DNA of 64,000 nucleotides. Source: Spirochaetia bacterium. Its GTDB lineage: Bacteria; Spirochaetota; Spirochaetia; UBA9216. This document shows, in pieces, positions 3,991-63,394 of this stretch; within the stretch, counting starts at the first letter, position 1, and every line of letters starts with the position of its first letter. Where the stretch lies: positions 736,001 through 800,000 of the forward strand of contig CAXXYH010000004.1 in NCBI GenBank assembly GCA_963677925.2, in the 5' to 3' direction. A model generated the notes under the pieces. That model saw nothing but the letters and a program-made list of their open reading frames with translations. It was not told the origin of the DNA and ran no database searches. The position numbers were made by a program, and so were the translations under genes.

Positions 3991-4169
3991 GAATCGAGCT
4001 TACTCCTTTGATTAACATTTTACAACCGAAGCTTATGGGTAAGGGTGCATCTTGCAAATTATTTATATCAAATTTGAAAAGTATGACTGTTCCTATTGAC
4101 AGAAACGCCAAATAGATTTAAAAATATTGATGTGATTCTTTACATAGAAACAATAAAAGAGAGAAACTA

Positions 4170-5171
4170 ATGAAAAGAAAACTATTAACTGTTCTTGCAG
4201 CGGCCTTGATATTTACAACTGTGACTATGAACGCAGCAGCATCAGGATCTTCAGAAGAAGCGACAGAGACTGACGGAAGCCTTCGCATAGGTGTTTCCCA
4301 GTTTGTACAGCATCCTGCTCTTGATGCCGTTTATCAGGGGATTGTCGATGAAATGGAAGCACTCGGTTATGCCGATGTTGAATACGATTATCAGAACTCC
4401 AATGCTGATGTTAACACCTGCAGGCAGATTGCATCGCTTTTTCAGTCAAAGAAAATGGATATGGTGGTAGGTATTGCTACCCCGAATGCACAGGCATTAA
4501 AGAGCGGCGTAACAAACGCACCTCTTATCTATGCGGCAATTACAGACCCGGTATCCGCCGGTCTTGTTGAAACACTTGAACACGGCGACCCGGATATGAC
4601 AGGTACCTCATATAAGAATCCATTCAAAGAGCAGATCGAGTTTCTGATGGCATTCCATGAAGTCAAGGTTCTTGGACAGGTTTATACCGGAAGCGAAGAT
4701 AATGCCATGTTTCAGGCAAAGCAGGTTGAAAAAGCCTGTGCAGAGCTTGGTATAGAATATCTGGGTACTTCGATTGCTTCATCCGCCGAGGTTAAGTCAG
4801 CAACTGAATCAATTGTGAAAAGAGTTGACGCCATCTATGTTACAAATGACAACACTGTTGTGTCAGCTTTAGGCGGTCTTGTACAGACGGCAACAGCAAA
4901 CAAGGTTCCTGTACTTTCAGCTGATACAGCTTCTGCAAAAGATAATCCGGTATTCATTGCCTGGGGTTTTGACTGGCACTACATCGGTGTTGAAACTGCG
5001 CGTCTGATGGACAAAATCCTCAAAGGAGAGAAGTCTGAAGATATGCCGACTACAGTTGTAAGTGATCCGAAATACATGGAGATGTATCTGAATACAGGTG
5101 TTGCTGAGAAAATCGGAATAGAATTTCCACAGTCAGTCCTCGATCAGGCGGCAGTAATTCTTGAAGAGTAA
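4170..5171 (+). CDS. ABC transporter substrate-binding protein (TrpX-like aromatic amino acid family)
   Basis: Signal peptide; SQFVQHPALDA, IATPNAQA, AITDPV and NDNTVVSA motifs. Confidence 0.88.
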   Translation: MKRKLLTVLAAALIFTTVTMNAAASGSSEEATETDGSLRIGVSQFVQHPALDAVYQGIVDEMEALGYADVEYDYQNSNADVNTCRQIASLFQSKKMDMVVGIATPNAQALKSGVTNAPLIYAAITDPVSAGLVETLEHGDPDMTGTSYKNPFKEQIEFLMAFHEVKVLGQVYTGSEDNAMFQAKQVEKACAELGIEYLGTSIASSAEVKSATESIVKRVDAIYVTNDNTVVSALGGLVQTATANKVPVLSADTASAKDNPVFIAWGFDWHYIGVETARLMDKILKGEKSEDMPTTVVSDPKYMEMYLNTGVAEKIGIEFPQSVLDQAAVILEE

Positions 5172-5239
5172 AAATATAAGATAGTTGAGCTTCTTTCAAA
5201 ACTCGGTTAGTTTTGAAATTGCCTCAGTTTTTCAGGTAT

Positions 5240-5281
5240 AAAAAAAGCCCGGACGGTTCAAGAGAACTTTCCGGGTTTTTT
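5240..5281 (+). terminator. Intrinsic terminator after the SBP gene
   Basis: AAAAAAGCCCGGA...TCCGGGTTTTTT hairpin with T-tract. Confidence 0.75.
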
Positions 5282-5319
5282 ATTTGTTATGAAGCAGTTC
5301 ATTAACTATAATTTTAATA

Positions 5320-7038: not shown

Positions 7039-7056
7039 AAATATCTGAATCAAAAT

Positions 7057-7088
7057 AAAAAGGGATACCCGAAGCTTCGAATATCCCC
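7057..7088 (-). terminator. Intrinsic terminator between convergent genes
   Basis: Minus strand GGGGATATTCG-AAGCTT-CGGGTATCCCT followed by TTTT. Confidence 0.65.
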
Positions 7089-7110
7089 TATATAAATTGT
7101 TTACTCAGTT

Positions 7111-8589
7111 TTAAGGTGAAGGAGGTGTGCCTCCGCTTCCGTATGCGCCTGCCGGATTCACCTGGCTAAGCGAGCCTACAAGTTCGGTAATTGATGTCTG
7201 AGCAGACGCGGGGTAGGCTGTGGTCTGTTTCATGGTGAAATCTTTTCCGCTGAAATTAGTGAATATGCTGCTTAGATTATCATAGATTGCCCATTCGAGA
7301 TTGTCGGTATCTGTACTGACTCCTTCAAATGGATAATATGTATGATTTTCATCATAGATATTATTCAATACCAATATGAGCGGGTTAGCTGAGTTTGTAT
7401 ATATAAGATAAGTATATCCTGTGGCATTTGCAGTAAATATGTTTTTGGTAAAATTATACACAGATGTCGAAGACTCGCTTAGGTTTATTGCAATACCTGC
7501 TGAAGCTTTTGAAGCTACTGTGTTACGGGAGAATTCAACATTAAAATTGATGTCATCATAATTGGGTGAATTGAGTGCTTCCTGTGTTTGTACGGTATCA
7601 TTATAAAAAATTATATTATTTGTAAAACTGTATGAACTATTTTCTGCAGGATAATAAATTTGAATTCCCTCCGTAGTTCCCTTATGATAAATCCTACTGT
7701 TTGTAATGGAAAGAGCTGAACATGTTTCAGCACTGCTGCTCCCTGCTTTTATTGCATAAGCACCACCTGAATCTGCCAGGTTTTTAATAAATGCATGGTC
7801 TATCGATGCTTCATTATTTACCAGAATGCCGCCCCAGCCCCCGGTTGTTGGTCCGGAGAGAATTACCGGTTTGTCAGCTGTCCCTTCGATGTTAAGGGTT
7901 CCGTTTACTATAATCTGGTATCCGCCGGATGTATTTAACTCAACATCACGATAAATATTCAGTGTAGCCCCGCTGGAAATGGTTATATCATTTCCAACAT
8001 ATATTTCGCCTTCGCCTGAACGTATGTAGCTGTCCAGCAGTATCGTTTCACCATCGGTAAGATCCGAGGCATACAGCCTTGTTCCCTGGTAGTTAAACCC
8101 CTCTCCTGAAAGAGAGATTGTTATCTGTCCATCATCCTCATCACTGCTGTATATTGTCAGTGTACCGCTGAGCACCTCCTCTGATTCCGGAGAAAAACTC
8201 AGGGTGTATGGCTTAGTTTCGCCGGCCGGTATTTCGATGGTATCAGAAGTTGATTCAGGCATTGAGAATGCAGAGTCTCCAACCAGCCAGGTCAGGTAGG
8301 TCATATCCAGTGTAAGTGTGTCTGCTGTGCTATTGTTTCCAATGGTAACTGTTGCGGTTTCAGTTTCACCTACAAGGGTTTTTGTAAACGTGTAGGAACT
8401 TCCGTCGGCGTAGACTGTTCCGCCGATTCTAATTTCAATATCCCCTGCCGGAGCCAGATCAAGCCCCGCATAGTCGGGGTCGTTCGGGTTTTCCCGGTCG
8501 TGCTGTGTTGCGTCAAGAAAGAATCCGTCACATGAGACTATGGCAGTGAAGGTGAGAATTATCAGAAAAAGTTTAGTTATCTTTATCAT
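7111..8589 (-). CDS. Surface lipoprotein with an Ig-like (ASH / choice-of-anchor D-like) domain and a C-terminal parallel beta-helix
   Basis: Lipobox AIVSC; RENPNDP after the Cys; TVTIGNN...IPAGE...FSP...GTLTIYSSD...LSGEG Ig-like pattern; Asn/Thr-rich beta-helix-like repeats. Confidence 0.65.
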   Translation of the reverse strand: MIKITKLFLIILTFTAIVSCDGFFLDATQHDRENPNDPDYAGLDLAPAGDIEIRIGGTVYADGSSYTFTKTLVGETETATVTIGNNSTADTLTLDMTYLTWLVGDSAFSMPESTSDTIEIPAGETKPYTLSFSPESEEVLSGTLTIYSSDEDDGQITISLSGEGFNYQGTRLYASDLTDGETILLDSYIRSGEGEIYVGNDITISSGATLNIYRDVELNTSGGYQIIVNGTLNIEGTADKPVILSGPTTGGWGGILVNNEASIDHAFIKNLADSGGAYAIKAGSSSAETCSALSITNSRIYHKGTTEGIQIYYPAENSSYSFTNNIIFYNDTVQTQEALNSPNYDDINFNVEFSRNTVASKASAGIAINLSESSTSVYNFTKNIFTANATGYTYLIYTNSANPLILVLNNIYDENHTYYPFEGVSTDTDNLEWAIYDNLSSIFTNFSGKDFTMKQTTAYPASAQTSITELVGSLSQVNPAGAYGSGGTPPSP

Positions 8590-8598
8590 CGTGTGCTC

Positions 8599-9567
8599 CT
8601 AGTAGGAAAATCCGAAGGACAGCACGGTTGCCTTCGGTCCCGGAAGAATGGAAACCGCCGTATCAACTGCCGGTTCTGAATCACCCCCGAAAAAGAACAG
8701 TGAGGTAAGTGCTGTCAGCACCCCGCCTCCTGCAAGCCCGGCTCCTACCCAGAACATCGTATTGCTGTTTTCGGCAGCGGTATATGCTGCTGCATAGGTA
8801 CTGTAAAGTGAATCGTAGTCGGCATCACCGGCTGTTGCTGAATCGTATGCGCTCCAGGCGTCGTTTGCGTCATTAATTTTCATTATTGAATCAATAAGAA
8901 AATATGTGCCGACTCCGGCTATTACAGTTCCGCCGCCCAGCAGGCTCCATCCGACTATACTCTTTGTGCCTGCGGGAGCAGCATCGCCGTCGCCGGATCC
9001 AGCTTTTGCCGGTTTTTCGGTTGCAGGCTTTGCGGCTTCAGCGGCCTCTGTCTTACCTGCCGTTTCTGAACTGCCCGATTCTGCGGCAGCCGTTTGAGTA
9101 TCGGCAGCTTCAAGCCCGGACAGGCGGGCGGCAAAGTTAGGCATATCGTCTATCAGTTCGCCCAGATCGGGATATATATTTTTGGCCGTATGAATTGTGG
9201 CTGAGGTTTCGGTTTCAATCATTTTGGCAGAGAAAATATATCTGCCGCCCAGAAGAGCTATATCTCCAGTAACAATAAACTGGGCTGAAAGCAGCTTTCC
9301 AATTTCGAGCATGCAGCTTTCGTCGGTACATCCTGAATTGGAAAAAGCCAGTTCGTCCAGGATAGTATCACGCTGGGCTGTATCAATTACTGTGTATTCA
9401 CCTGCGTCATGCAGTGATGCGGATAGAAAAGAAGTTATCGACTTCATGTCGCTTTCCGAGATTGAATTGATTCGGAAGTCTAGAACTGTAAGTACAGGTT
9501 TATCATTTGAAAATACACTTGCTGAAATAATCAACAGAGGTACAAACAGCAATATTAGCTTTTTCAT
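8599..9567 (-). CDS. Secreted CsgG/TolB-N-like domain protein with Ala-rich linker and C-terminal Gly-rich hydrophobic segments
   Basis: Signal peptide; VLDF...VIDTAQRDTILDE...GCTDESCMLEIGKLLSAQFIVTGDI pattern; ends in LSFGFSY. Confidence 0.6.
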   Translation of the reverse strand: MKKLILLFVPLLIISASVFSNDKPVLTVLDFRINSISESDMKSITSFLSASLHDAGEYTVIDTAQRDTILDELAFSNSGCTDESCMLEIGKLLSAQFIVTGDIALLGGRYIFSAKMIETETSATIHTAKNIYPDLGELIDDMPNFAARLSGLEAADTQTAAAESGSSETAGKTEAAEAAKPATEKPAKAGSGDGDAAPAGTKSIVGWSLLGGGTVIAGVGTYFLIDSIMKINDANDAWSAYDSATAGDADYDSLYSTYAAAYTAAENSNTMFWVGAGLAGGGVLTALTSLFFFGGDSEPAVDTAVSILPGPKATVLSFGFSY

Positions 9568-9651
9568 CAGTTTTCCTCCGTTATTATTTTAGCCCGATGT
9601 CGTAAAATCCTGCAAGTAATCAAACTTAATGTTGATGTTTTTTAAGGTTGG

Positions 9652-9679
9652 GTGTATATTGTGTATATACGATATACAC
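9652..9679. promoter_or_regulatory. YtrA/GntR-type operator (28-bp inverted repeat)
   Basis: GTGTATATTGTGTATATACGATATACAC, near-perfect palindrome upstream of an ABC operon that encodes a YtrA-type regulator. Confidence 0.75.
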
Positions 9680-9700
9680 AGTAAGCAAGGAGTTTCGGTT

Positions 9701-10555
9701 ATGTGTATGATGAAGGTAGAAAAACTTAGAAAACATTATGAAAAGTTTCTGCTTGATGATGTCAGCTTCAGGCTTGAAGAAGGTTATATAATGGGTTTTA
9801 TCGGCAGCAACGGCGCCGGGAAGACTACTACATTGAAAAGTATTATGGGCATGGTTCACTCAGATTCCGGAACTGTCGAAGTTTTCGGACAGGATTTCCG
9901 CTCCAATGAGCTTGAACTGAAGCAGAAGATTGCCTTTATGCTTGGCCCCGGAGATTATTATCCGACTAAAAAGGTCAGTGCCGTAACTGATACTTACCGG
10001 CGTTTTTACACAGACTGGGATGAGTCTCTCTATCAGTCTCTGCTGAAGCGTTTTGATATAGATCCGCAGAAAAAAATAAAGGATCTGTCACAGGGAATGA
10101 AGATCAAGTATTCGCTTTCACTTGCTCTTTCCCACAGGGCAAAGCTGATAATTCTTGATGAACCTACATCCGGTCTTGATCCGGTTGCAAGGGATGATCT
10201 GCTTGAGCTGTTTCAGGAGTTTGTAGAACAGGGCGATAAGAGTATTCTTTTCTCCACCCATATAACTTCGGATCTCGAAAAATGTGCCGATTACATCACC
10301 TATATCGAAAAGGGAAAGATCGTTGAGAGCCTTACCAAGGATGAGCTGATGGATAAGTACAGGATAATCAGCGGAACAGAGGCTCAGCTTAACGGGCTGA
10401 AAGATCAGATGGTGTCCTGGAAAAAGAATTCATTCGGTTTTCAGGGACTTATTGAAACAGAAAAACTGGGTGAGGCGGAACGTGAGTCTGCATCGGTTCC
10501 CGGTCTCGACGATATAATGATTTACCACTCAAAAAGGGGGCAGGCAAATGAATAA
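9701..10555 (+). CDS. ABC transporter ATP-binding protein (YtrB-like)
   Basis: GSNGAGKTT Walker A, LSQGM signature, ILDEPT Walker B. ATG 9701 follows AAGGAG. Confidence 0.92.
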   Translation: MCMMKVEKLRKHYEKFLLDDVSFRLEEGYIMGFIGSNGAGKTTTLKSIMGMVHSDSGTVEVFGQDFRSNELELKQKIAFMLGPGDYYPTKKVSAVTDTYRRFYTDWDESLYQSLLKRFDIDPQKKIKDLSQGMKIKYSLSLALSHRAKLIILDEPTSGLDPVARDDLLELFQEFVEQGDKSILFSTHITSDLEKCADYITYIEKGKIVESLTKDELMDKYRIISGTEAQLNGLKDQMVSWKKNSFGFQGLIETEKLGEAERESASVPGLDDIMIYHSKRGQANE

Positions 10556-11192
10556 TCTTCTGCACAAGGAATTTAATCTATCTATTAACCGGTTTTTTGT
10601 TATTCTCATGCCGTTGATCACAGGGGCTCTGTTTCTGATCCCTCAGTGGCCATATTTTATAGCCATGATGTATTTCTTCTTTATATCTGTACCAACTCTT
10701 TCAAGTTCCTACAATTCACAGAAAGACAACGAGTTTTCTATGATTATGCCGGTAAGAAAGACCGATGTTGTGAAAGCCAGGATTACAGCATTCTGTATAA
10801 TTGAACTGATTCATATTGCATTCGGTATTATTTTTGCGGTCGTTCATCACATTCTGTATAAGTTTGATAATTTTATGCTTAACCTGAATCCGGCATTTTT
10901 CGGTCTGGCATTTACGATGTTCGGTATTTTCAATATTATATTTTTCAGTATGTACTACAAAACCGCTTACTTCTTCGGTATTCCGACAATTGCAGCAACT
11001 GTAGTGACTGTTCTTTATGTTGCCGGAATCGAAATGTCAGCTATCTTTATTGATTCGGTCCGCTCTTTCTTTGGAAATCCGGCTATTGGAATTCAGCTTT
11101 CAGTTCTGGTCGGCGGAATTGCAGCGTTTGTTATTCTTAATCTTTTAACAGTAAAAATTGCATCCGCAAGGTTTGAAAAAGTGGATATATGA
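10548..11192 (+). CDS. ABC-2 transporter permease
   Basis: About six TM helices; MPVRKTDVVKAR motif; ends FEKVDI; overlaps the ATPase gene. Confidence 0.85.
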   Translation: MNNLLHKEFNLSINRFFVILMPLITGALFLIPQWPYFIAMMYFFFISVPTLSSSYNSQKDNEFSMIMPVRKTDVVKARITAFCIIELIHIAFGIIFAVVHHILYKFDNFMLNLNPAFFGLAFTMFGIFNIIFFSMYYKTAYFFGIPTIAATVVTVLYVAGIEMSAIFIDSVRSFFGNPAIGIQLSVLVGGIAAFVILNLLTVKIASARFEKVDI

Positions 11193-11557
11193 TAGGTGTA
11201 AAAATTTCCAATCAGTCTGATAAACCGATTTATCAGCAGCTTTTCGAACAGATTAGTGCCATGATACTTAACCGGGTACTTGAAAGTGATTTCAGTCTGC
11301 CGTCCATAAGGACGGCGGCTAAAGAGCTGCGTGTGAGTGTAATAACCGTTAAGGCCGCATGGGAAGAGCTTGAGCGCTCCGGATTAATTTATACCGTAGC
11401 TGGAAAGGGCTGTTTTATTTCAGAGTTTTCCGATGACGAACTTAGTTTGAAAAGAGATGAAATTATAAATAAGCAGCTTGATAAGGACCTTGTGTTTTAC
11501 AGGAATATGGGTGCCGATAAACAAGAGCTTATCAGTTTAATTGAGAAGAAATTATAA
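11189..11557 (+). CDS. GntR-family (YtrA subfamily) regulator
   Basis: PIYQQL...LPSIRTAAKELRVSVITVKAAWEELE...GKGCFI winged HTH; short C-terminus. Confidence 0.9.
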   Translation: MIGVKISNQSDKPIYQQLFEQISAMILNRVLESDFSLPSIRTAAKELRVSVITVKAAWEELERSGLIYTVAGKGCFISEFSDDELSLKRDEIINKQLDKDLVFYRNMGADKQELISLIEKKL

Positions 11558-11566
11558 AATCAATTA

Positions 11567-11899
11567 TTATGCTCTATTGTGTTTGAAGAATTTTTCAAGT
11601 TCAGTTTTGTCTTCAACAGCAACATCCCAGAAAACAAGTCCTATTTCATAAAAGTGATCTGAAACTTGATCTGTACGTACTACCTTTGCAAAAACATTAA
11701 TCTGTCTCGGGTTTCCGGGCAGAAAGAATTTTAAATGTACAAACTGGTTCGGATCCAGCGGCTCCTCCGAGATTAGGGCAATGCCGGTTTCACTGATATT
11801 TTTGCTGTAGACAAATCTGGTGTTGTTGCAGTTTACTTCAACATCAAGCGGTATGCGGGGAGCTCTCTCTATATGTTTTTTTTCATTCACGCTGTCCAA
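11567..11899 (-). CDS. Stand-alone PilZ domain protein
   Basis: RAPR and NISETG motifs, AKVVR, GLVF. TTG start is uncertain. Confidence 0.82.
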   Translation of the reverse strand: MDSVNEKKHIERAPRIPLDVEVNCNNTRFVYSKNISETGIALISEEPLDPNQFVHLKFFLPGNPRQINVFAKVVRTDQVSDHFYEIGLVFWDVAVEDKTELEKFFKHNRA

Positions 11900-11908
11900 T
11901 ACCCTTTA

Positions 11909-11937
11909 AGTATAGAGTATTGGACAGTATGGTGCAA
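11909..11937 (-). promoter_or_regulatory. Sigma70-type promoter for the pilZ gene
   Basis: TTGCAC-17 bp-TATACT on the minus strand. Confidence 0.6.
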
Positions 11938-11941
11938 ATAT

Positions 11942-13174
11942 TTAAATTTCAATTATGTTTGATTTGGCTATTTTTCCAAGCAGATAGGCGCTCGGTTTAG
12001 GGGTTCTTTCCATTGTTTTCCTGTTAACTCCGATAATTCCGAATTTTGGATCGTAGCCGCTGACCCACTCAAAGTTATCAAAAGCTGACCAGCAGAAATA
12101 TCCCCTTACATCAATACCGTTCTCAATGCAGCCGGCTACACTTTTTATTGCCCTGCTTAGATACTCAACACGGCGGCTGTCATCTTCCATCGCAACCCCG
12201 TTTTCAGTTACATAAACAGGAACTCCGGCAATTGCCGCTGCATCCCGTATCGTACCGCCTATAGCCTCGGGGTAGAACTCTTCGTTCATCTGGTTGATTT
12301 CAATATCTTCGCCCGGGGGAATTACGCCATCGGGACCGACTATCCAGCGAGAGTATGTCTGAACACCCACAAAATCATCACCGCTAAGTCTTTCAAGGTA
12401 ATCCGCTGACAGCTCTTTCTTTAGAAGAGCTGCGTTTTCTTCACCGCCGGGAGCTGTATGGAAATCCATCATGGCAAGGCTTAGGCCTACCGGAAAATTG
12501 CCGGGGCCGGATTTCAGAATGCCGGCAGCTTTTTTATGGGCTGCATGAATAATGTCCCACATCTCCGGTGCTGTAGTGAACTGCCAAAGCCCGAGTTTCT
12601 CAGGCTCAACTCCGAATGCATCAGCGGCCTGCCTCCAGAATGGAATATCCCTTATTGAAAACGGCATCATCGTTGCAATAATCCGGGCGATGTTGGGTTC
12701 ATTGAATGTGCAGACGCCTGTAAACAGATCTCCCATATGCTTTGAGACTTTTTCAATAAATCGGGCGTAACTGTCTATTGTTTTCTTATCCAGCCAGCCG
12801 CCTTTTCTGATAAGCCAGCGAGGGGATATAAAATGATGCATTGTTACAAAGGGTTGAATGCCGTATTCGTGGCAGGTTGAAAGCATTCTTCGGTAATGTT
12901 CCAGTTCTGCATAGGAGAACTCTCCTTCCTCGGGTTCAATCCTTGCCCACTCAAGAGAGAATCTGAATGAGTTCAAACCAAGCTCTGAAAAAAGTTTAAT
13001 GTCTCCAGGGTATCGATGGTAGAAGTCGCAGGCGTCTCCGGAGGGATCCTTGTAAACCGTATCAGGAAGATGTTCCAGCAGCCAGCTCTCACTGTTTATA
13101 TTGTTTCCTTCAACCTGGTGTCCGGCGGTGGCTGTTCCCCATAAAAAGTTTTCCGGAAAATAAAAATCTTTCAA
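11942..13174 (-). CDS. Glycoside hydrolase family 1 beta-glucosidase
   Basis: FLWGTATAGHQVEG; TFNEP (acid/base); YVTENG (nucleophile); DNFEW. Confidence 0.95.
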   Translation of the reverse strand: MKDFYFPENFLWGTATAGHQVEGNNINSESWLLEHLPDTVYKDPSGDACDFYHRYPGDIKLFSELGLNSFRFSLEWARIEPEEGEFSYAELEHYRRMLSTCHEYGIQPFVTMHHFISPRWLIRKGGWLDKKTIDSYARFIEKVSKHMGDLFTGVCTFNEPNIARIIATMMPFSIRDIPFWRQAADAFGVEPEKLGLWQFTTAPEMWDIIHAAHKKAAGILKSGPGNFPVGLSLAMMDFHTAPGGEENAALLKKELSADYLERLSGDDFVGVQTYSRWIVGPDGVIPPGEDIEINQMNEEFYPEAIGGTIRDAAAIAGVPVYVTENGVAMEDDSRRVEYLSRAIKSVAGCIENGIDVRGYFCWSAFDNFEWVSGYDPKFGIIGVNRKTMERTPKPSAYLLGKIAKSNIIEI

Positions 13175-13186
13175 GATAGTGCTCCT

Positions 13187-14149
13187 CTATTGTTGTGTTT
13201 CTTCAAGATGTGCAAGCCAGAAGGGTTTTTCCAGAAGCGGAAGCGAAAAGCGGTTAGACAGCCATTTTTCAACTGCTTCGGTCCAGGCTTCTACGCTCTG
13301 GTTGCACTCATATTTTGAACTGGCTGAGGCCTGGTTTGAAAGGCTCAGTCCATGCGGTCCTTTTTCAAATATGTGAACCTCAAACGGGATCTCTGCTCCG
13401 GCAAGTGCTGCCGACATTTCGCAGGTATTCTGAACCGGTACCAGTGTATCCTCAGTTGTTGCCCATAGAAAGCAGGGCGGAGTAGATTCTGAGACATGCT
13501 GTACCGGACTTGCTGCATCAAGCGCCTCATCAGAGGGGTCAGCGGTTGCAAAGAATGCAATATTTGCAGCCCTTCTCATTTCTGCGGCGAAGGGGTCTTT
13601 CTCGTTCTTGAGGGGTTTCGCCATCAGGTGGTAGTTATACATACCGTAAGCTAAGATTGCAGCGGCGGGTTTAAGTTTTTCCGGTGGTGCATTGAAGAAG
13701 TCTTTGATGAGAGGTTTATCCCAGTATACGGAGTACATTGCGCAGTTATGTGCTCCAGCCGAGAAGCCGCAAACAGCAATTTTTTCAGTATCAAGCAGCC
13801 AGTCTTCAGCATTCTCATGAATTATCAGAAAAGCCTTTCCGATATCCCTAACCGGGGCCGGATGCGCTGTTTCAGGATTCGGCTGCTTAACACTTGAGGG
13901 ATCTATTCCGGCAGCACCACTGCTGTATGTTGAGTACCGCAGTACAAGCGCATGGTATCCCATTGATGCAAATTTGAGTGCAACGGGCTCCGCCTCCCTG
14001 TCGGAGCAGTTCATGTAACCGCCGCCCGGACATACAAGGACTGCAGGCCGTTTTTTTCCGGCAAGCATCTCCGGGGAGTCTTTCAGTATGTATGTGGTCA
14101 GGGTCAGATCTTCCCTGTCAGGATATAATTTGATTGACTTCTGGATCAT
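13187..14149 (-). CDS. Alpha/beta-hydrolase carbohydrate (acetyl/feruloyl-type) esterase
   Basis: CPGGGY oxyanion motif, GFSAG nucleophile, D..VP and GPHG catalytic His. Confidence 0.85.
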   Translation of the reverse strand: MIQKSIKLYPDREDLTLTTYILKDSPEMLAGKKRPAVLVCPGGGYMNCSDREAEPVALKFASMGYHALVLRYSTYSSGAAGIDPSSVKQPNPETAHPAPVRDIGKAFLIIHENAEDWLLDTEKIAVCGFSAGAHNCAMYSVYWDKPLIKDFFNAPPEKLKPAAAILAYGMYNYHLMAKPLKNEKDPFAAEMRRAANIAFFATADPSDEALDAASPVQHVSESTPPCFLWATTEDTLVPVQNTCEMSAALAGAEIPFEVHIFEKGPHGLSLSNQASASSKYECNQSVEAWTEAVEKWLSNRFSLPLLEKPFWLAHLEETQQ

Positions 14150-55338: not shown

Positions 55339-56364
55339 TCAGTCCCAGTGAAGCAGAACCTTTCCGGCCCGTCCTGTTCGCATGATCTCGAATCCTTCAT
55401 GAAAATTGTCAACCGGCAGCTCATGTGTGATTATAGGGTCAATCTCAAGGCCTGTTCTGACCATCGCGGCCATCTTATACCAGGTTTCAAACATTTCACG
55501 TCCGTAGATCCCCTTTAGGGTAAGTCCCTTGAATATGATTTCACTCCAGTCTATTTCACTTTGGCCGGAAGGCAGTCCGAGCATTGCTACGCGTCCTCCG
55601 TTATTCATAAGAGAAAACATCTGCCGCTGTGCTGAAGGATTCCCAGACATCTCAAGTCCGACGTCAAATCCTTCAAGCATATGAAGTTCGCTCATGACAT
55701 CCGGAAGATTTTCCCGCGCGGTGTTAACAGTTTTTGTAACACCGAAATCTCTGGCAAGCTGAAGGCGGTAGTCATTAACGTCTGTGATGATAATATATCG
55801 GGCTCCGGCATGACGTGCCACAGCGGCCGCCATTATCCCTATCGGGCCTGCGCCTGTGATTAGAACATCTTCTCCGACTAAATCATATGCTAGCGCGGTA
55901 TGAACCGCGTTTCCAAGGGGATCAAAGATGGCTGCGATCCGGTCGGGGATATAATCATCAAGCTTAAATGCGTTGTATGCAGGAAGAACAAGATATTCTG
56001 CAAAACAGCCGGTCCGGTTAACCCCGATACCGCTTGTATTGCGGCAGAGATGACGCTTTCCTGCACGGCAGTTTCTGCAGTGCCCGCAGGTGATATGTCC
56101 TTCACCGGTAACCCTGTCGCCGATATGAAATCCGTCGACTTCGCTTCCGGCTTTTTCTACTACACCCACAAACTCATGACCGGTTATCATCGGTACAGGT
56201 ATTGTCTTTCTTGACCACTCATCCCAGTTGTAAATATGGACATCGGTGCCGCAGATGGCTGTAATCTTTATCCTTATAAGCAGATCGTTAGGTCCGTATT
56301 CCGGAACAGGTGAATCAATCATCCACAGGCCGGGTTCTGATTTTGTCTTTGCCAGCGCTTTCAT
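55339..56364 (-). CDS. tdh: L-threonine 3-dehydrogenase
   Basis: [32 protein letters not shown] and [14 protein letters not shown]. Confidence 0.96.
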
Positions 56365-56367
56365 GAT

Positions 56368-57555
56368 TTAAATAACCCCCAGTTCCTTTCCGGCTGCAGC
56401 GATGGTTTCTACCGCCTGCCGGACCTGTTCAGTGCTGTGTGCCGCCGACATCTGAAAACGAATCCTTGCCTGTCCTTCAGGCACTACAGGATAGCTGAAT
56501 CCCACTGCATAGACCCCTCGTTCAAGCAGAAGGTCCGCCATTTTAACGGCAAGCGGGGCATCATAAAGCATCAGCGGAACAATCGGGTGTACACCTTCCA
56601 CTATTGTAAACCCGGCGGACTTCAGGCCTTCCCGGAATATTTCTGTATTGTTATTAAGGGCAGTACGGAGGTCGCCGCTGCCGCGCAGCATCTCCAGAGT
56701 TTTCAGTGCAGTATATGTCATAACCGGTGCAAGCGAATTTGAGAAAAGATAAGGACGTGAACGCTGACGCAGCCAGTCAATAATTTCCCTGCGGCCTGAA
56801 GTATAACCGCCGGAGGCCCCTCCCAGAGCCTTTCCCAGTGTTCCCGTTACAATATCAACGCGATCCCGGACTCCGCAGTATTCAGGCGTCCCGGTACCGT
56901 TTTCTCCGATAAAACCTACAGCGTGAGAATCATCAACCATGACAATTGCGTCATAGCGGTCAGCCAGTTCGCAGATTCCTGCAAGATTAGCAATTATACC
57001 GTCCATTGAAAAAACCCCGTCTGTGGCTATTAGTCTGAAGCGGCAGTTCGAGGCTTCTTTGAGGCAGTTTTCAAGCTCTCCCATATTGTTGTTTGCATAA
57101 CGCATCCTCCGCGCCTTTGAGAGCCTTACACCGTCAATGATGCTGGCATGGTTTAAAGCATCCGAGATAATTACATCCTCTTCCCCGAGAATTGTTTCAA
57201 AGAGTCCGCCGTTTGCATCGAAGCAGGATGAGTAAAGTATTGTGCTTTGAGTTCCGAGAAAGCTGCTTAACTGTTTTTCAAGTTCCTGATGAATCGACTG
57301 TGTCCCGCAGATAAACCTTACCGATGACAGTCCGTACCCGTATTGTTCAAGCCCCTCTTTGGCCGCGGCTATCAGTTCCGGGCTGTCTGAAAGTCCCAGG
57401 TAGTTATTGGCGCAGAAATTAATTACCTTCCGGCCGTCTTCAAGAGTAATTTCAGCCTGCTGGGGAGAACAGATAGTGCGTTCCTGTTTGTACAGGCCTT
57501 TTGCTTTAAGCGCCCCGGCTTCATTCCTGTAGAAATCAAAGATCTTCCTGCTCAT
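56368..57555 (-). CDS. kbl: Glycine C-acetyltransferase (2-amino-3-ketobutyrate CoA ligase)
   Basis: [34 protein letters not shown] and [10 protein letters not shown]; paired with tdh. Confidence 0.96.
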
Positions 57556-57631: not shown

Positions 57632-57661
57632 TTGACCGGCCGTATGAAAATCCAATAAATT
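57632..57661 (+). promoter_or_regulatory. Candidate promoter for the riboswitch-ALDH transcript
   Basis: TTGACC-18 bp-TAAATT, ending about 9 nt before the riboswitch P1. Confidence 0.45.
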
Positions 57662-57669
57662 TATAGCAA

Positions 57670-57771
57670 ATCTTCGAGTCCCGTGCTCCTAAATGAAGTC
57701 TCAACTCACATGGAGCCTGGACCGACAGGGTGTTGCCGGAAACAGCAATGCCTCCCGACTGGAAAGGAGAT
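57670..57771 (+). ncRNA. Moco/Tuco riboswitch (Moco RNA motif), P3-less tungsten-cofactor-type variant
   Basis: P1 AUCUUC/GGAGAU covers the RBS. P2 GUCC/GGAC and GCUCC/GGAGC carry the CCUAA...AUGG tetraloop receptor. AGGG junction. P4 GGUGUUGC/GCAAUGCC has a GAAA loop. The GCCUCCCG...UGGAAAGG 3' end is as in the E. coli moaA leader. Confidence 0.85.
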
Positions 57772-57775
57772 AAAA

Positions 57776-59224
57776 ATGAAAGACAGTTATGAACTGTGGA
57801 TTAATGGAGGCTGGGTGCCCTCCAGAGGAAAGGACAGGATTGATGTTATCAACCCTGCCACCGGTCAAAAGTTTCAGAGCGTACCAGATGCAGCGGTTTC
57901 TGATTTTGAATCAGCTGTTGCTGCGGCGGAAAAAGCCTTTTATGAAGGGCCCTGGAGCGAGAGCACACCGGCCGAACGTTCCGGAATAATCTGGAAGATG
58001 GCAGATCTTATCGAAAAATACTCCGACGAACTTGCAGCGCTTGAGACCGAAAATACCGGAAAGCCGCTGGAATATCAATGCAAGGCAGTTGATATTCATG
58101 ATTCAATCGACAACTTCAGGTATTATGCAACCCTTGCAAGAGATACGCATGGTATTGCCTCAGGTCAGTATGTTAAAGGTCTTACCCATGTTTTCCGCCA
58201 TGAACCTGTAGGAGTTGTCGGCCAGATAACACCCTGGAATTATCCATTTCAGATGGCCGCCTGGAAGATCGGCCCGGCCCTTGCGGCAGGCTGCACAATA
58301 ATTATGAAACCTGCTTCAAATACGCCCCTGTCCACTCTTCGTCTTGGAGAGATTGCAAAGGAGGCAGGCCTTCCCGACGGTGTTCTTAATATAGTAACCG
58401 GGCGCGGTGCAAAAGCTGAGGTCCTTGCGACTCATCCGGCAGTACGCCTTGTAAGCCTTACCGGTTCAACCGGAACCGGACGGAGAATTATGGAGCTTGC
58501 TTCCGGAACGATGAAGCGTACCCATATGGAGCTGGGTGGAAAGGCTCCTGTTGTTGTTTTTGAAGATGCCGATATCGCAAAGGTTGCTGAAACTGCTGTT
58601 CTGGGCGGAACCTTTAACGCCGGCCAGGACTGTACCGCGGCAACCAGAATCTACGTTCATGAAGGCCGGTATAAGCAGCTGCTGGAGGCTGTCACTGCCG
58701 CAGCAGAGGCTGTGAAAGTCGGAGATCCGCTGAATCCTGAAACAGAAGTCGGGCCTCTCATCAGCTCAAAACAGCTTGAGCGAGTTTCCGGCTTTGTCGA
58801 GCGTGCAAAATCTGCAGGTGCCAGAGTCCTGACCGGCGGACGGAAAATGTCCGAACTTGGAAGCGGATACTTCTATGCGCCGACAGTTATTGCAGATGCA
58901 AAGCAGGGTTCAGAGATTATCCAGGAGGAGGTCTTCGGGCCTGTTCTGACAATCAATACATTTAAGGACGAGGCAGAGGCTGTGAGGCTTGGGAATGATG
59001 TCGTCTACGGCTTGGCTGCATCGGTATGGACCGCTGATGTTGCCCGTGCAATGAGGGTTTCCCATAAGCTGGAGTTCGGAACCGTATGGGTTAATAATCA
59101 TCTTATTGTGGCTTCAGAAGCTCCTCACGGCGGATTCAAGCAGTCCGGCTTTGGAAAGGAGCTTTCACTTGAAGCTGTCAGCGAATACCTTGTCACCAAG
59201 AATATCGCTATTACTACCGAATAG
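57776..59224 (+). CDS. NAD-dependent aldehyde dehydrogenase (4-aminobutyraldehyde / betaine-aldehyde type, PatD/YdcW-like)
   Basis: ITPWNYP, LTGSTGTG, MELGGKAP, NAGQDCTAATR, EEVFGPV and PHGGFKQSGFG. ATG 57776 after AAAGGAG. Confidence 0.92.
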   Translation: MKDSYELWINGGWVPSRGKDRIDVINPATGQKFQSVPDAAVSDFESAVAAAEKAFYEGPWSESTPAERSGIIWKMADLIEKYSDELAALETENTGKPLEYQCKAVDIHDSIDNFRYYATLARDTHGIASGQYVKGLTHVFRHEPVGVVGQITPWNYPFQMAAWKIGPALAAGCTIIMKPASNTPLSTLRLGEIAKEAGLPDGVLNIVTGRGAKAEVLATHPAVRLVSLTGSTGTGRRIMELASGTMKRTHMELGGKAPVVVFEDADIAKVAETAVLGGTFNAGQDCTAATRIYVHEGRYKQLLEAVTAAAEAVKVGDPLNPETEVGPLISSKQLERVSGFVERAKSAGARVLTGGRKMSELGSGYFYAPTVIADAKQGSEIIQEEVFGPVLTINTFKDEAEAVRLGNDVVYGLAASVWTADVARAMRVSHKLEFGTVWVNNHLIVASEAPHGGFKQSGFGKELSLEAVSEYLVTKNIAITTE

Positions 59225-59231
59225 AATAAAT

Positions 59232-59271
59232 AAAAAGCCGGGCTGAGGAGTTCCTCTTCCCGGCTTTTTTT
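59232..59271. terminator. Bidirectional terminator
   Basis: AAAAAGCCGGG..GAGG-AGTT-CCTC..CCCGGCTTTTTTT. Confidence 0.85.
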
Positions 59272-59288
59272 GATTCTGCGGAATAGAA

Positions 59289-61930: not shown

Positions 61931-62917
61931 TTACTTGTCAGACTTCTTTCCGTCTTCGCTGATGCTCTGCCTCATGTCTGTATCAGCCTGAATGTTTCTG
62001 AGCCGATAATAATCCATGATGCCCAGATGCCCTTCTCTGAATGCGGCTGCAATAGCTTTTGGAATCTCGGCCTCCGCCAGAACAACCTGTGCCTGGTTTT
62101 CCTGAACCAGGGCTGACATTTCCTGCTCTCTTGCAATTGCTGCTGCTCTGCGCTGTTCCGCAACAGCCTGGAATCTGCGTTTATCTGCTTCTGCCTGATC
62201 GGCCTGAAGTTTTGCTCCGATATTATCGCCGACATCCACATCTGCTATATCGATTGAAAGAATCTCGAAAGCCGTTCCTGCATCCAGACCCTTTGCAAGT
62301 ACGGTTTTTGAAATCTTGTCAGGATTTTCAATAACATCCTTATAAGTTTCTGAACTTCCGATTGTAGTTACAATACCTTCACCGACTCTGGCTATGATTG
62401 TCTCCTCAGTGGCTCCTCCGACAAGCCTTTCTATATTGGCCCTCACGGTAACTCTGGCCTTTGCTCTCAGCTGTATTCCGTCCTTGGCCACTGCGTCAAT
62501 TGTCTGCCGGCCCTTATCAGGATTGGGGCAGTCGATTACCTTGGGGTTTACGCTGGTTTTTACCGCATCAAGTACATCACGGCCTGCCAGATCGATAGCT
62601 GCAGCCTGCTGAAAATCAAGCACGATATTTGCCTTATTTGCAGCAATAAGCGCCTTGCTTACTCTTATGACGTCACCGCCCGCCAGGTAGTGTGTTTCGA
62701 GAAGATCCGAATCTGTTGCAATACCGGCCTTTGTAAGCATAATCCGGCTGTCAACGATCTGCTTTGATTTGACCTGCCGTATCCACATTCCTATCAGGCG
62801 TCCGAGCGAGATGTGTGCACCTGAAAGCAGGGCTCTGAACCACAATCCGAAAAACTTGATAAACAGTGCAATAATTATGAGGGCTATAACCCCTGCTACG
62901 ATATAAACCAGAACCAT
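61931..62917 (-). CDS. floA: Flotillin-like protein FloA (YqfA)
   Basis: [53 protein letters not shown] and [16 protein letters not shown]. Confidence 0.93.
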
Positions 62918-63394
62918 TTAATCCTCCTTGCTTACGACAATCCTGTTGCCGTCGACTTTTTTAACAATAATTTTACTGTCTTTTTCTATATATTCACCGT
63001 TGGAAACGGCGTTTATCCGCCTGTTTTCGATAATTATCATTCCGGACGGTCTGAGGTCGGTAAGAGCAGTCCCTGACTGTCCCAGAATGCTGCTCATGTC
63101 TCCAGCTCCTGCGGTAAAGCCTTCTTCTTTTCCGAAGGTCTTCCCGAGAATCAGCCGCTTGCCGAAAAAAGTATACGGAAAAACCTTGAAGAACAGAGCT
63201 ATCAGCAGCGGAATCATTATTGCCGCAATGATGATAAAAACCGCACCAGCGGTATTGCTTATCATAAACGCGGTTACAATGGATGCAATAACCGTCCCCG
63301 CACCGACAAGGCCGACAAGCCCGAAAGCCGGTATGAAAAACTCAATAATTATAAATATTATCCCTGCCGCAAGCAGTGCTGCCGCTTTTATCAT
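62918..63394 (-). CDS. Short NfeD-family protein
   Basis: IEFFIPAFG TM region; G.ALTDLRPSG OB-fold motif. Confidence 0.85.
   Translation of the reverse strand: MIKAAALLAAGIIFIIIEFFIPAFGLVGLVGAGTVIASIVTAFMISNTAGAVFIIIAAIMIPLLIALFFKVFPYTFFGKRLILGKTFGKEEGFTAGAGDMSSILGQSGTALTDLRPSGMIIIENRRINAVSNGEYIEKDSKIIVKKVDGNRIVVSKED

What the first reader, a model, noticed from the sequence alone, without database searches (positions are those of the whole stretch)
57670..59224. Tungsten-cofactor-type Moco riboswitch gating a pterin-independent NAD aldehyde dehydrogenase
Seen: the ALDH leader has the hallmarks of the Moco RNA motif (CCUAA/AUGG receptor in P2, GAAA loop on P4, AGGG, GCCUCCC...GGAAAGGAG). It has no P3, and P1 pairs with the Shine-Dalgarno just before the ATG. 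Known: these riboswitches normally precede Mo/W transport, cofactor synthesis or molybdo/tungsto-enzyme genes, and P3-less members are associated with tungsten genes; ALDH-superfamily enzymes use NAD(P) and no pterin cofactor. Inference: (a) the ALDH is a cofactor-free backup switched off when W/Mo cofactor allows an aldehyde oxidoreductase (AOR) to work, like B12 riboswitches on B12-independent isozymes; or (b) this is a variant riboswitch with a new ligand related to amine or aldehyde metabolism.
Basis: partly seen in the sequence, partly recalled or inferred. Interest (0 to 1): 0.85.

Follow-up and report, generated by a model that had tools for sequence, protein, structure and literature searches.

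The report
Tungsten/molybdenum-cofactor riboswitch controlling NAD aldehyde dehydrogenase
A standard molybdenum/tungsten-cofactor riboswitch sits in front of an aldehyde dehydrogenase that needs no such cofactor, most likely switching this enzyme off when the cofactor-dependent aldehyde oxidoreductases can work.

Summary
Window 57660-57785 (+) matches Rfam RF01055 at 69.5 bits (E 1e-14, cut-off 36). The match covers the full model with the P3 hairpin deleted. The 3' strand of P1 (57766-57771) contains the Shine-Dalgarno AAGGAG, 6 nt before the ATG at 57776. The gene is a 482-aa ALDH-superfamily enzyme, PF00171 E 4e-171.

The genome carries four more RF01055 elements, on W/Mo uptake and biosynthesis operons and on a ferredoxin-AOR operon. 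It has six AOR-family genes.

I examined 125 riboswitch regions from 57 other Spirochaetia genomes. Three precede ALDHs of different lineages, 28-38% identical between lineages. One of these lies next to a riboswitch-controlled Mo-type aldehyde oxidoreductase.

ALDH leaders share the "SD inside P1" design of uptake genes. AOR leaders carry a separate second SD.

Best reading (about 0.6): the ALDH is a cofactor-independent stand-in that is repressed when the cofactor is plentiful. A new ligand is not supported.

Caveats:
- There are no expression data.
- One relative that has AOR genes carries the ALDH ortholog without the riboswitch.
- ALDH orthologs elsewhere lack the riboswitch.

The parts
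57632..57661 (+). Promoter-like site (TTGACC, 18 nt, TAAATT) directly before the riboswitch
   Evidence: Consensus scan, 9 of 12 matches. This is a pattern match only. The two other ALDH-type leaders examined in G049 have stronger sites in the same position.
57660..57785 (+). RF01055 Moco/tungsten-cofactor riboswitch aptamer, P3-less
   Evidence: cmscan 69.5 bits, E 1.1e-14, model 1-135, P3 columns deleted. The same hit appears in the whole-genome search.
57670..57675 (+). P1 5' strand (AUCUUC)
   Evidence: Structure line of the cmscan alignment. Also paired in the MFE fold.
57678..57723 (+). P2 hairpin with the CCUAA / AUGG tetraloop-receptor halves
   Evidence: cmscan alignment.
57728..57753 (+). 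P4 hairpin with the GAAA loop (57739-57742)
   Evidence: cmscan alignment and MFE fold. The end coordinates are approximate.
57764..57771 (+). Shine-Dalgarno AAGGAG overlapping the P1 3' strand (GGAGAU, 57766-57771)
   Evidence: Sequence and cmscan structure. The spacer to the ATG is 6 nt. The modelled unpaired probability of the SD window falls from 0.94 to 0.39 when P1 is enforced.
57776..59224 (+). NAD(P)-type aldehyde dehydrogenase, 482 aa, aminobutyraldehyde-dehydrogenase-like subfamily
   Evidence: PF00171 E 4.1e-171. NF010000 637.5 bits against a cut-off of 615, while the equivalog TIGR03374 scores 514.6 against 909.3. Best solved relatives are 6c43 and 1wnb. ELGG, GQxC and Asn155 are conserved.
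59236..59272 (.). Terminator hairpin with a T-run between the ALDH and the convergent acetate kinase gene; the ALDH is monocistronic
   Evidence: Terminator-like site at 59245-59259 plus T tail. The longer GCCGGG/CCCGGC stem is read from the sequence.

Best explanation
This is a canonical P3-less member of the Moco/tungsten-cofactor riboswitch class acting as a translational OFF switch on a single gene, an NAD(P)-dependent ALDH-superfamily aldehyde dehydrogenase.

Proposed mechanism: when free pterin cofactor (by the literature's correlation, the tungsten form) is plentiful, it binds the aptamer and stabilises P1. The P1 3' strand is the ribosome-binding site, so the ALDH is not translated. 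When cofactor is scarce, P1 opens and the ALDH is made.

The organism also has six AOR-family (tungstopterin-type) aldehyde:ferredoxin oxidoreductase genes. The ALDH is therefore most likely a cofactor-independent stand-in for aldehyde oxidation, expressed together with the W/Mo uptake systems when the cofactor-dependent enzymes cannot be loaded.

Shown here: the aptamer, its architecture, SD-in-P1, the gene family, the genome inventory, and recurrence in other genomes.

Inferred: the ligand, the sign of regulation (by analogy with the tested E. coli moaA element of the same design), and overlap in substrate between the ALDH and the AORs.
For: 1. The aptamer is canonical: 69.5 bits, full model, all conserved blocks. 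It is conserved with the gene in the same-genus genome G001 (64.8 bits; ALDH 96% identical).

2. The platform design matches the uptake genes. The GGAG of P1 lies 6 nt before the ATG in 3 of 3 ALDH leaders measured by script, and 8 nt before it in the fourth read by eye.
- Same design in uptake genes: TupA-like, 18 of 20 measured have a spacer of 7 nt or less; SBP_bac_8, 27 of 27 measured have 0-8 nt.
- Different design in AOR-family leaders: the start codon lies 18-37 nt after P1 with a second GGAGG (AOR 10 of 11 measured, 135-aa ferredoxin 7 of 7, 216-aa ferredoxin 6 of 6).

3. In a folding model, enforcing P1 lowers SD accessibility:
- ALDH leaders: 0.92 to 0.35 (n=3).
- Uptake leaders: 0.85 to 0.39 (n=10).
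- Enzyme leaders: 0.47 to 0.46, no change (n=13).

4. The genome inventory fits:
- five RF01055 elements;
- a tupABC-like + moeA x2 + moaA + moaC operon, two further ABC importers and a ferredoxin-AOR operon under the other four;
- six PF01314 genes.

5. ALDHs recur under the riboswitch. 3 of 112 fetched regions and 0 of 13 further loci begin with an ALDH. The three are G001 (ortholog), G007 (31% identical) and G049 (38% identical).
- The three lineages are 28-38% identical to each other, and G000 has no ortholog of the other two.
- All keep the catalytic residues.
- A rough chance expectation is 0.31 of 125, P about 0.004. This assumes about 4500 genes, and related genomes are not independent.

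6. In G049 the riboswitch-ALDH unit sits directly beside a second promoter-plus-riboswitch unit that drives a 916-aa xanthine-oxidase-family (Mo-type) aldehyde oxidoreductase.

7. G007, G049 and G001 all have AOR genes (16, 5 and 8). G008 has the 74% ALDH ortholog without a riboswitch. In G008 (81% complete) no RF01055, AOR or MoeA was found.

8. Literature:
- The E. coli moaA element with the RBS in P1 represses expression with Moco. P3-less forms correlate with tungsten genes. The authors themselves suggested that a P3-less element might repress a gene when a tungsten-using alternative exists (PMC2408646, passages and section 6).
- Riboswitch-preceded W-AORs of Pelobacter are induced by tungstate (PMC3543383 and PMC4275255, passages).
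Against: 1. There is no expression evidence. No RNA run holding the stretch was listed.

2. G002 (81% complete) has three RF01055 elements, five AOR genes and MoeA. Its 66% ALDH ortholog shows no riboswitch in the 172 nt available upstream.

3. The link is rare and recent for this orthogroup. Apart from the same-genus locus, no riboswitch was found (nhmmer, E up to 1) in:
- 0 of 75 other genome contigs ortholog loci, 73 of them with at least 150 nt upstream;
- 0 of 80 metagenome loci, 73 of them with at least 150 nt upstream.

4. Three other full-length ALDH paralogs in G000 have no RF01055 element.

5. The ALDH falls in an aminobutyraldehyde-dehydrogenase subfamily. Whether its substrates are also AOR substrates was not tested.

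6. The sign of regulation of the AOR leaders is unresolved; the folding model shows no P1 dependence. Reciprocal control is therefore not shown.

7. The ligand of P3-less aptamers has never been shown biochemically. PMC2408646 states that binding could not be demonstrated because the cofactor is unstable.
Confidence: 0.6

Rival explanations
1. The switch has the same OFF sign but a different purpose: avoiding a futile cycle. If the AORs run in the reductive direction (carboxylic acid plus reduced ferredoxin to aldehyde, then alcohol), an NAD-ALDH that re-oxidises the aldehyde would waste low-potential electrons. The ALDH would then be shut off whenever the cofactor lets the AORs work.
For: The structural evidence is the same as for the main reading: SD in P1 and AORs present. 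The AOR leaders use a different platform from the ALDH leaders. That AORs reduce acids in acetogens is recalled knowledge; the aor/adhE setting is touched on in PMC7653027 (abstract passage).
Against: Nothing here shows the direction in which these AORs operate. The ALDH co-regulates with uptake genes, which fits a cofactor-scarcity programme at least as well. This reading predicts the same expression pattern, so sequence alone cannot separate the two.
Confidence: 0.15
2. The association is a recent, selectively neutral capture. A riboswitch leader was recombined in front of an ALDH in this genus, and the regulation has no adaptive link to aldehyde metabolism.
For: The riboswitch is found on this ALDH orthogroup only in the two species of one genus. 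It is absent from the 74% and 66% orthologs in the same family and from 155 more distant ortholog loci. Only 3 of 125 riboswitch regions in other genomes carry an ALDH.
Against: The arrangement is kept in both species of the genus with an intact aptamer. Two further, unrelated ALDH lineages acquired the same class of leader with the same SD-in-P1 design in other genera. One of them is adjacent to a riboswitch-controlled Mo aldehyde oxidoreductase. The rough chance probability is about 0.004.
Confidence: 0.12
3. This is a variant aptamer with a new ligand related to amine or aldehyde metabolism.
For: The downstream gene has no known pterin requirement. The own-genome ALDH aptamer and the G007 ALDH aptamer are each other's closest match outside the genus, at 65.5% identity.
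Against: The aptamer matches the family model end to end at 69.5 bits. That is higher than the genome's own AOR-associated (56.2) and tupA-associated (64.6) copies, and all conserved blocks are kept. The margin of the mutual best match is small, 65% against about 60% for many transport-associated copies. The third ALDH aptamer (G049) is closest to the neighbouring Mo-enzyme aptamer instead. No position specific to the ALDH-linked copies was seen in the four cmscan alignments.
Confidence: 0.03

Closest known systems
E. coli moaA Moco riboswitch (RF01055; Regulski et al. 2008, PMC2408646)
   Same: Same RNA family. Same expression platform, with the ribosome-binding site inside the P1 3' strand. 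Ligand-dependent repression was shown genetically for moaA (passages read).
   Different: The E. coli element has P3 and controls cofactor biosynthesis. This one lacks P3 and controls an enzyme that neither makes, carries nor uses the cofactor.
P3-less ('Tuco') Moco RNAs before tungsten genes, e.g. the aorA1-3 leaders of Pelobacter carbinolicus (PMC3543383) and those listed in PMC2408646
   Same: P3-less architecture in an anaerobe with AOR genes. This genome has the same kind of element before its own ferredoxin-AOR operon.
   Different: Those elements precede the cofactor-using enzymes. In this class such leaders carry a separate second SD 18-37 nt after P1, whereas the ALDH leader uses the P1 GGAG itself as its SD.
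Cobalamin riboswitches on B12-independent isozymes such as metE (recalled knowledge, not checked in a call)
   Same: Proposed logic: a cofactor-sensing OFF switch represses the cofactor-independent enzyme for a reaction that a cofactor-dependent enzyme can also carry out.
   Different: Different RNA class and cofactor. For the Moco class my literature searches found no such case in print. The nearest is a one-sentence speculation about S. wolfei sulfite-oxidase-like genes in PMC2408646.
Gamma-aminobutyraldehyde dehydrogenase PatD/YdcW (PDB 6c43, 1wnb)
   Same: Best solved relatives (E 6e-138 and 2.7e-136, full length). The ELGGKAP and NAGQDCTAA active-site stretches are identical in the printed alignment to 6c43. 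The subfamily model NF010000 is over its cut-off.
   Different: The equivalog model TIGR03374 is far below its cut-off (514.6 against 909.3), so the substrate is not established. No putrescine-pathway genes are adjacent; the neighbours are tdh-kbl and ackA.

Membership tests
RF01055 Moco RNA motif (riboswitch) | Covariance-model score at or above Rfam's gathering score over the full model | tested here: met
   69.5 bits against 36, E 1.1e-14, model 1-135. Repeated in the genome search.
RF01055 Moco RNA motif (riboswitch) | Conserved core blocks and a GNRA tetraloop with its receptor (CCUAA...AUGG in P2, GAAA on P4) | tested here: met
   All blocks are present in the cmscan alignment. That tetraloop and receptor occur together is stated in PMC2408646.
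RF01055 Moco RNA motif (riboswitch) | Location in the 5' leader of a gene for Mo/W transport, cofactor synthesis or a cofactor-using enzyme | tested here: not met
   The only downstream gene is an ALDH-superfamily enzyme followed by a terminator. The other four copies in the genome do meet this feature.
RF01055 Moco RNA motif (riboswitch) | Binds Moco or the tungsten cofactor and changes expression | not testable with these tools
   No binding or expression data. No RNA run was listed.
P3-less ('Tuco-type') subclass of Moco RNAs | P3 stem absent | tested here: met
   The model's P3 columns are deleted in the window element and in the G001, G007 and G049 ALDH-linked elements.
P3-less ('Tuco-type') subclass of Moco RNAs | Host genome carries tungsten-related genes (tupA-type transporter, AOR-type enzymes) | tested here: met
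   A PBP_like_2/ABC (tupABC-like) operon and six PF01314 AOR-family genes. The genome also has 4 PF00384 and 3 PF02738 genes, so molybdenum use is likely too.
ALDH superfamily (PF00171), non-acylating NAD(P) aldehyde dehydrogenase | Full-length domain with the catalytic Cys, the general-base Glu and the oxyanion Asn (residue roles recalled) | tested here: met
   PF00171 profile 1-461, E 4.1e-171. E252-L-G-G, G283-Q-x-C286 and N155 are invariant in the four riboswitch-linked ALDHs.
Aminobutyraldehyde dehydrogenase (PatD/YdcW) | Score over NCBIfam's curated cut-offs | tested here: inconclusive
   Subfamily NF010000 scores 637.5 against 615 (met). Equivalog TIGR03374 scores 514.6 against 909.3 (not met).
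Cofactor riboswitch repressing a cofactor-independent isozyme (B12/metE-type logic) | OFF-type expression platform | tested here: met
   The SD lies within the P1 3' strand, 6 nt before the ATG. Modelled SD accessibility falls when P1 is enforced. The sign itself is inferred by analogy with moaA.
Cofactor riboswitch repressing a cofactor-independent isozyme (B12/metE-type logic) | A cofactor-dependent enzyme for the same reaction class in the same genome | tested here: met
   Six AOR-family genes in G000. In G049 a Mo-type aldehyde oxidoreductase lies directly adjacent. Identity of substrates was not tested.
Cofactor riboswitch repressing a cofactor-independent isozyme (B12/metE-type logic) | Reciprocal expression of the two enzymes with cofactor supply | not testable with these tools
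   No transcript or protein data for this organism.

The most novel reading that the evidence does not exclude
In Spirochaetia, P3-less cofactor riboswitches implement isozyme switching for aldehyde oxidation.
- Pterin-dependent aldehyde oxidoreductases (AOR and xanthine-oxidase types) carry one leader design, with a separate SD that may act as an ON switch.
- Cofactor-free NAD-ALDHs have at least three times independently acquired the OFF design used by tungstate and molybdate importers.

This would be the first case of the Moco/tungsten-cofactor riboswitch class controlling a cofactor-independent substitute enzyme. It would also be evidence that a single aptamer class is wired with opposite signs within one genome.
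Probability: 0.45. Interest if true: 0.7.

Novelty: new member of a known kind. Interest (0 to 1): 0.58.

Why it matters
The Moco/tungsten-cofactor riboswitch is one of the few widespread riboswitch classes whose ligand has never been shown to bind directly. Its known regulon consists of transport, cofactor synthesis and cofactor-using enzymes.

A target that has nothing to do with the pterin cofactor, yet catalyses the same reaction class as tungsten enzymes, extends that regulon in a way already known for cobalamin riboswitches.

The finding also gives a simple, testable read-out of intracellular cofactor status: the ALDH should go down and the importers down as the AORs go up.

The clean split between leaders with the SD in P1 (importers, ALDH) and leaders with a second SD (AOR operons) suggests how opposite regulatory signs could be built on one aptamer.

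For annotation, the finding flags which of several ALDH paralogs is the likely stand-in under tungsten or molybdenum limitation.

Tried and rejected
Tested and rejected:
- A longer ORF from the GTG at 57683, with the leader translated. The orthologs' open frames end 4-5 codons upstream of the shared Met, and the Pfam domain starts at residue 13.
- A functional cluster with the neighbours. The divergent genes are tdh and kbl (threonine catabolism), and ackA is convergent. Only the same-genus genome keeps ackA next to the ALDH. The G008, G002, G007 and G049 loci show none of these neighbours. I make no claim from the neighbourhood.
- A common origin for the ALDH leaders of G000 and G007. They are mutual best matches, but at 65.5% against about 60% for many others. 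That is too weak to claim.

Attempts that led nowhere:
- A regex-based P3 call across all class riboswitches and a MAFFT-column approach were unreliable and were dropped. P3 status is stated only for the eight elements whose cmscan alignments I read.
- A folding test for an ON mechanism in AOR leaders showed no P1 dependence of the second SD (0.47 against 0.46). Their sign stays open.
- Expression: no RNA holder was listed for the stretch.
- Survey outside Spirochaetia: not done.

Literature. The searches were:
- 'Moco riboswitch' + 'aldehyde dehydrogenase' (0 papers);
- riboswitch + tungsten + aldehyde dehydrogenase + aldehyde oxidoreductase (1 paper, irrelevant);
- 'molybdenum cofactor riboswitch' + aldehyde (1 paper, listing only);
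- 'Moco RNA motif' (9 papers, listing);
- 'Moco riboswitch' (13 papers, listing);
- riboswitch + molybdenum cofactor + 'NAD-dependent aldehyde dehydrogenase' (1 paper, irrelevant by title);
- tungsten + riboswitch + Spirochaet (1 paper, about a B12 riboswitch).

None describes an NAD-ALDH under this riboswitch. Supplements were closed. Figs S1-S4 and the full Table 1 of PMC2408646, which list downstream genes, were not seen and could hold such a case.

Rows dropped before the tally of 112 regions. Of the 116 non-own matches:
- 2 were below the gathering score;
- 1 (G108) had under 400 nt of contig downstream;
- 2 tandem matches in G031 were fetched as one region.

Of the 13 first ORFs without a reference match, 10 were scanned against Pfam and 3 (L226, L228, L234) were not.
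Full report
**Observation**

A scan of the whole 64-kb window against Rfam gives a single family over its curated threshold. This is RF01055, the Moco RNA motif, at 57660-57785 on the + strand, with 69.5 bits (cut-off 36), E 1.1e-14, covering model positions 1-135.

- the CCUAA and AUGG halves of the tetraloop receptor in P2;
- a GAAA loop on P4;
- AGGG;
- GCCUCCC and UGGAAAGGAG.

The columns of the P3 hairpin are deleted.

P1 pairs 57670-57675 with 57766-57771. The second strand, GGAGAU, is part of the only Shine-Dalgarno sequence (AAGGAG, 57764-57769). The ATG follows 6 nt later at 57776. A free-energy fold recovers P1, P2 and P4, although the energy alone is not unusual (z = -1.4).

A promoter-like site (TTGACC, 18 nt, TAAATT) ends at 57661. 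A hairpin with a T-run follows the stop codon. The unit is therefore promoter, riboswitch, one gene, terminator.

**The gene**

The product from the ATG at 57776 is 482 aa and matches the ALDH family end to end (PF00171, E 4.1e-171).

The longer frame from the GTG at 57683 is an artefact. Orthologs align from residues 1 and 3, in open frames only 4-5 codons longer.

NCBIfam places the protein in the aminobutyraldehyde-dehydrogenase subfamily (NF010000, 637.5 bits against 615). The equivalog model is far below its cut-off (514.6 against 909.3).

The best solved relatives are gamma-aminobutyraldehyde dehydrogenases 6c43 and 1wnb. The ELGG, GQxC and Asn motifs are present (the roles of these residues are recalled). 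Nothing suggests a pterin cofactor.

The upstream divergent genes are kbl and tdh, and the convergent downstream gene is acetate kinase. These neighbours are kept only in the same genus.

**The genome**

The window lies in a 5.04-Mb assembly (99.6% complete). Its closest public relative is labelled a Spirochaetia MAG.

The assembly has five RF01055 elements. The other four precede:
- a PBP_like_2/ABC (tupABC-like) transporter followed by two moeA genes, moaA, moaC and a MOSC gene; this is the only copy with P3;
- an SBP_bac_8 / Oxidored_molyb / ABC-permease cluster;
- an SBP_bac_11 / Peripla_BP_2 / FecCD / ABC cluster;
- a 135-aa 4Fe-4S ferredoxin followed by an AOR-family gene.

The genome has six PF01314 (AOR-family) genes, four PF00384 genes and three PF02738 genes.

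**Recurrence**

Among 151 genomes of the class, 54 have RF01055 matches, 121 matches in all. I fetched 3 kb downstream of 113 of the 116 non-own matches as 112 regions. The first ORF of 70 aa or more was classified against the Pfam-annotated own-genome proteins and, for 10 of the 13 left over, against Pfam.

| First ORF | Regions |
|---|---|
| SBP_bac_8 type | 30 (25 followed by the Oxidored_molyb gene) |
| TupA-like | 25 |
| Ferredoxin | 15 (all 15 followed by an AOR-family gene) |
| AOR directly | 13 |
| SBP_bac_11 type | 5 |
| Peripla_BP_2 type | 4 |
| MoaA | 3 |
| Adenylosuccinate-lyase-like | 3 |
| ALDH | 3 |
| Xanthine-oxidase-family aldehyde oxidoreductase | 2 |
| Big_5 | 2 |
| Radical SAM | 1 |
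| Oxidored_molyb | 1 |
| Unassigned | 5 |

Thirteen more matches in four further family members added no ALDH.

The three ALDH cases are:
- the same-genus ortholog (G001, 96% identical, aptamer 64.8 bits);
- a 469-aa ALDH in G007 (same family, another genus; 31% identical);
- a 490-aa ALDH in G049 (another family; 38% identical).

The three lineages are 28-38% identical to each other, and G000 has no ortholog of the other two. All three aptamers lack P3 and place the SD in P1.

With about 11 ALDH-family genes in about 4500, chance would give about 0.3 ALDHs in 125 regions (P for 3 or more is about 0.004). This is rough, because related genomes are not independent.

**The G049 locus**

This locus is the most telling. 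A strong promoter-like site (11 of 12) and a riboswitch (6328-6454) drive the ALDH. Then 135 nt after its stop come a second promoter-like site and a second riboswitch (8055-8176). These drive a 916-aa protein with 2Fe-2S, hammerhead and two molybdopterin-binding domains. This is the single-chain aldehyde oxidoreductase architecture (that naming is recalled). A flavin/Fe-S protein follows.

So a cofactor-free and a cofactor-dependent aldehyde-oxidising enzyme lie side by side, each under its own copy of the sensor.

**Two leader designs**

I measured the distance from the GGAG of the P1 3' strand to the start codon.

| Leader class | Distance from P1 GGAG to start codon |
|---|---|
| ALDH | 6, 6, 6 nt (fourth is 8 nt by eye) |
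| SBP_bac_8 type | 0-8 nt in 27 of 27 measured |
| TupA-like | 7 nt or less in 18 of 20 measured |
| Direct AOR | 18-37 nt in 10 of 11 measured |
| 135-aa ferredoxin | 18-35 nt in 7 of 7 measured |
| 216-aa ferredoxin | 20-26 nt in 6 of 6 measured |

The AOR and ferredoxin leaders almost always carry a second GGAGG 5-9 nt before the start. The own-genome AOR leader shows this directly.

In a partition-function model, enforcing P1 instead of forbidding it changes the unpaired probability of the SD window as follows:
- ALDH leaders: 0.92 to 0.35 (n=3);
- uptake leaders: 0.85 to 0.39 (n=10);
- enzyme leaders: 0.47 to 0.46, no change (n=13).

The ALDH is therefore wired like the importers, whose repression by ample cofactor makes obvious sense. 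It is wired unlike the cofactor-using enzymes. Whether the enzyme design is an ON switch is not resolved here. In Pelobacter carbinolicus, W-AORs that carry such riboswitches (PMC3543383, passages) are induced by tungstate (PMC4275255, passages).

**Counter-evidence**

The link is not general for this orthogroup.
- The 74% ortholog in G008 and the 66% ortholog in G002 lack the element, with 249 and 172 nt available upstream.
- G008 (81% complete) shows no RF01055, AOR or MoeA, which fits the model.
- G002 has three riboswitches, five AOR genes and MoeA, which does not fit.

I built an nhmmer profile from 111 class riboswitches. It recovers 5 of 5 own-genome and 13 of 13 further family elements. 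It finds none in 75 other ortholog loci from reference genomes (mostly Anaerolineae and Leptospira, 54-66% identical) or in 80 metagenome loci. Nine of these 155 loci have too little upstream sequence to judge.

Three other full-length ALDH paralogs in G000 are not riboswitch-linked. No RNA data were available.

**Interpretation**

The most economical reading is that this canonical aptamer senses the same cofactor as its four siblings and represses translation of the ALDH when that cofactor is plentiful. By the published P3 correlation the cofactor is the tungsten form (PMC2408646, passages). The same design was tested for E. coli moaA (PMC2408646).

The ALDH would then be a cofactor-independent route for aldehyde oxidation, made together with the importers under cofactor scarcity.

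A variant reading has the same sign of regulation: repression prevents a futile cycle with AORs that reduce acids. Neutral capture is made unlikely by three independent acquisitions and by the G049 arrangement. A new ligand is not supported, because the aptamer is as good a family member as its siblings.

**Comparison and novelty**

The RNA is an ordinary member of RF01055 and of its P3-less subclass. Its platform is that of moaA. What is new is the target.

The defining paper lists transport, biosynthesis and cofactor-using enzymes. It offers only a one-sentence speculation that a P3-less element might repress a gene when a tungsten-dependent alternative exists. Seven literature searches found no report of an NAD-ALDH under this riboswitch. 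The supplementary gene lists of PMC2408646 could not be opened.

The logic parallels cobalamin riboswitches on B12-independent isozymes (recalled).

I file this as a new member of a known kind with an unusual and informative cargo. Interest is moderate to high for riboswitch and tungsten-enzyme specialists.

Noticed in passing
L006 (G000:C4:1088000-1098500), genes at 7433-8905, 6024-7418 and 4022-6031 on the - strand: The commonest riboswitch-controlled unit in this class is an uncharacterised cluster of an SBP_bac_8 binding protein, an Oxidored_molyb-domain protein and an ABC permease. It heads 30 of 112 regions, and 25 of those 30 include the Oxidored_molyb gene. It looks like an unnamed W/Mo-related importer.
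   Followed up: partly
L007 (G000:C4:665000-676000), riboswitch 1405-1527, genes 1679-5970: A siderophore/B12-type importer (SBP_bac_11, Peripla_BP_2, FecCD, ABC ATPase) lies about 150 nt behind a P3-less riboswitch. No terminator-like hairpin was found in the spacer. The substrate could be a chelated metal or a pterin.
   Followed up: partly
L130, L144 and L158 (G007, G004 and G006; same genus g4): Adenylosuccinate-lyase-like genes (Lyase_1 + ASL_C) lie 180-190 nt behind RF01055 elements. In L130 there is a terminator-like hairpin at 149-164. This is another enzyme with no obvious pterin link under this riboswitch.
   Followed up: partly
L236 (G049:C1) 6297-13315: A tandem arrangement: promoter-riboswitch-ALDH, then promoter-riboswitch-Mo-type aldehyde oxidoreductase (916 aa), then a Fer4_20/NAD-binding/CCG protein.
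   Followed up: yes
L009 8866-8997 (- strand), and 23 AOR/ferredoxin leaders in L123-L234: Leaders of AOR operons carry a second GGAGG Shine-Dalgarno 18-37 nt after the P1 GGAG. This is a design distinct from importer leaders. The simple folding model did not reveal how it switches.
   Followed up: partly
L181 (G031:C195:8-307): Two RF01055 elements in tandem (8-160 and 165-307) precede a ferredoxin-AOR operon.
   Followed up: no
L004/L008 (G000:C3:343877-344055, - strand): The only P3-containing copy in the genome controls the tupABC-like transporter plus moeA/moaA/moaC. The four P3-less copies control the other importers, the AOR and the ALDH. A transporter of the tungstate type behind a P3-containing aptamer does not fit the simple rule that P3 means molybdenum.
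   Followed up: no
L147 and L210 (G141 and G007): Small Big_5 (bacterial Ig-like) domain proteins of about 140 aa are the first ORF behind two RF01055 elements.
   Followed up: no
window 55339-57555 (- strand): A tdh-kbl pair (L-threonine 3-dehydrogenase and glycine C-acetyltransferase, both over their equivalog cut-offs) is transcribed divergently from the ALDH leader.
   Followed up: partly
window 61931-63394 (- strand): A FloA flotillin-like gene with an NfeD-family partner directly upstream of it.
   Followed up: no
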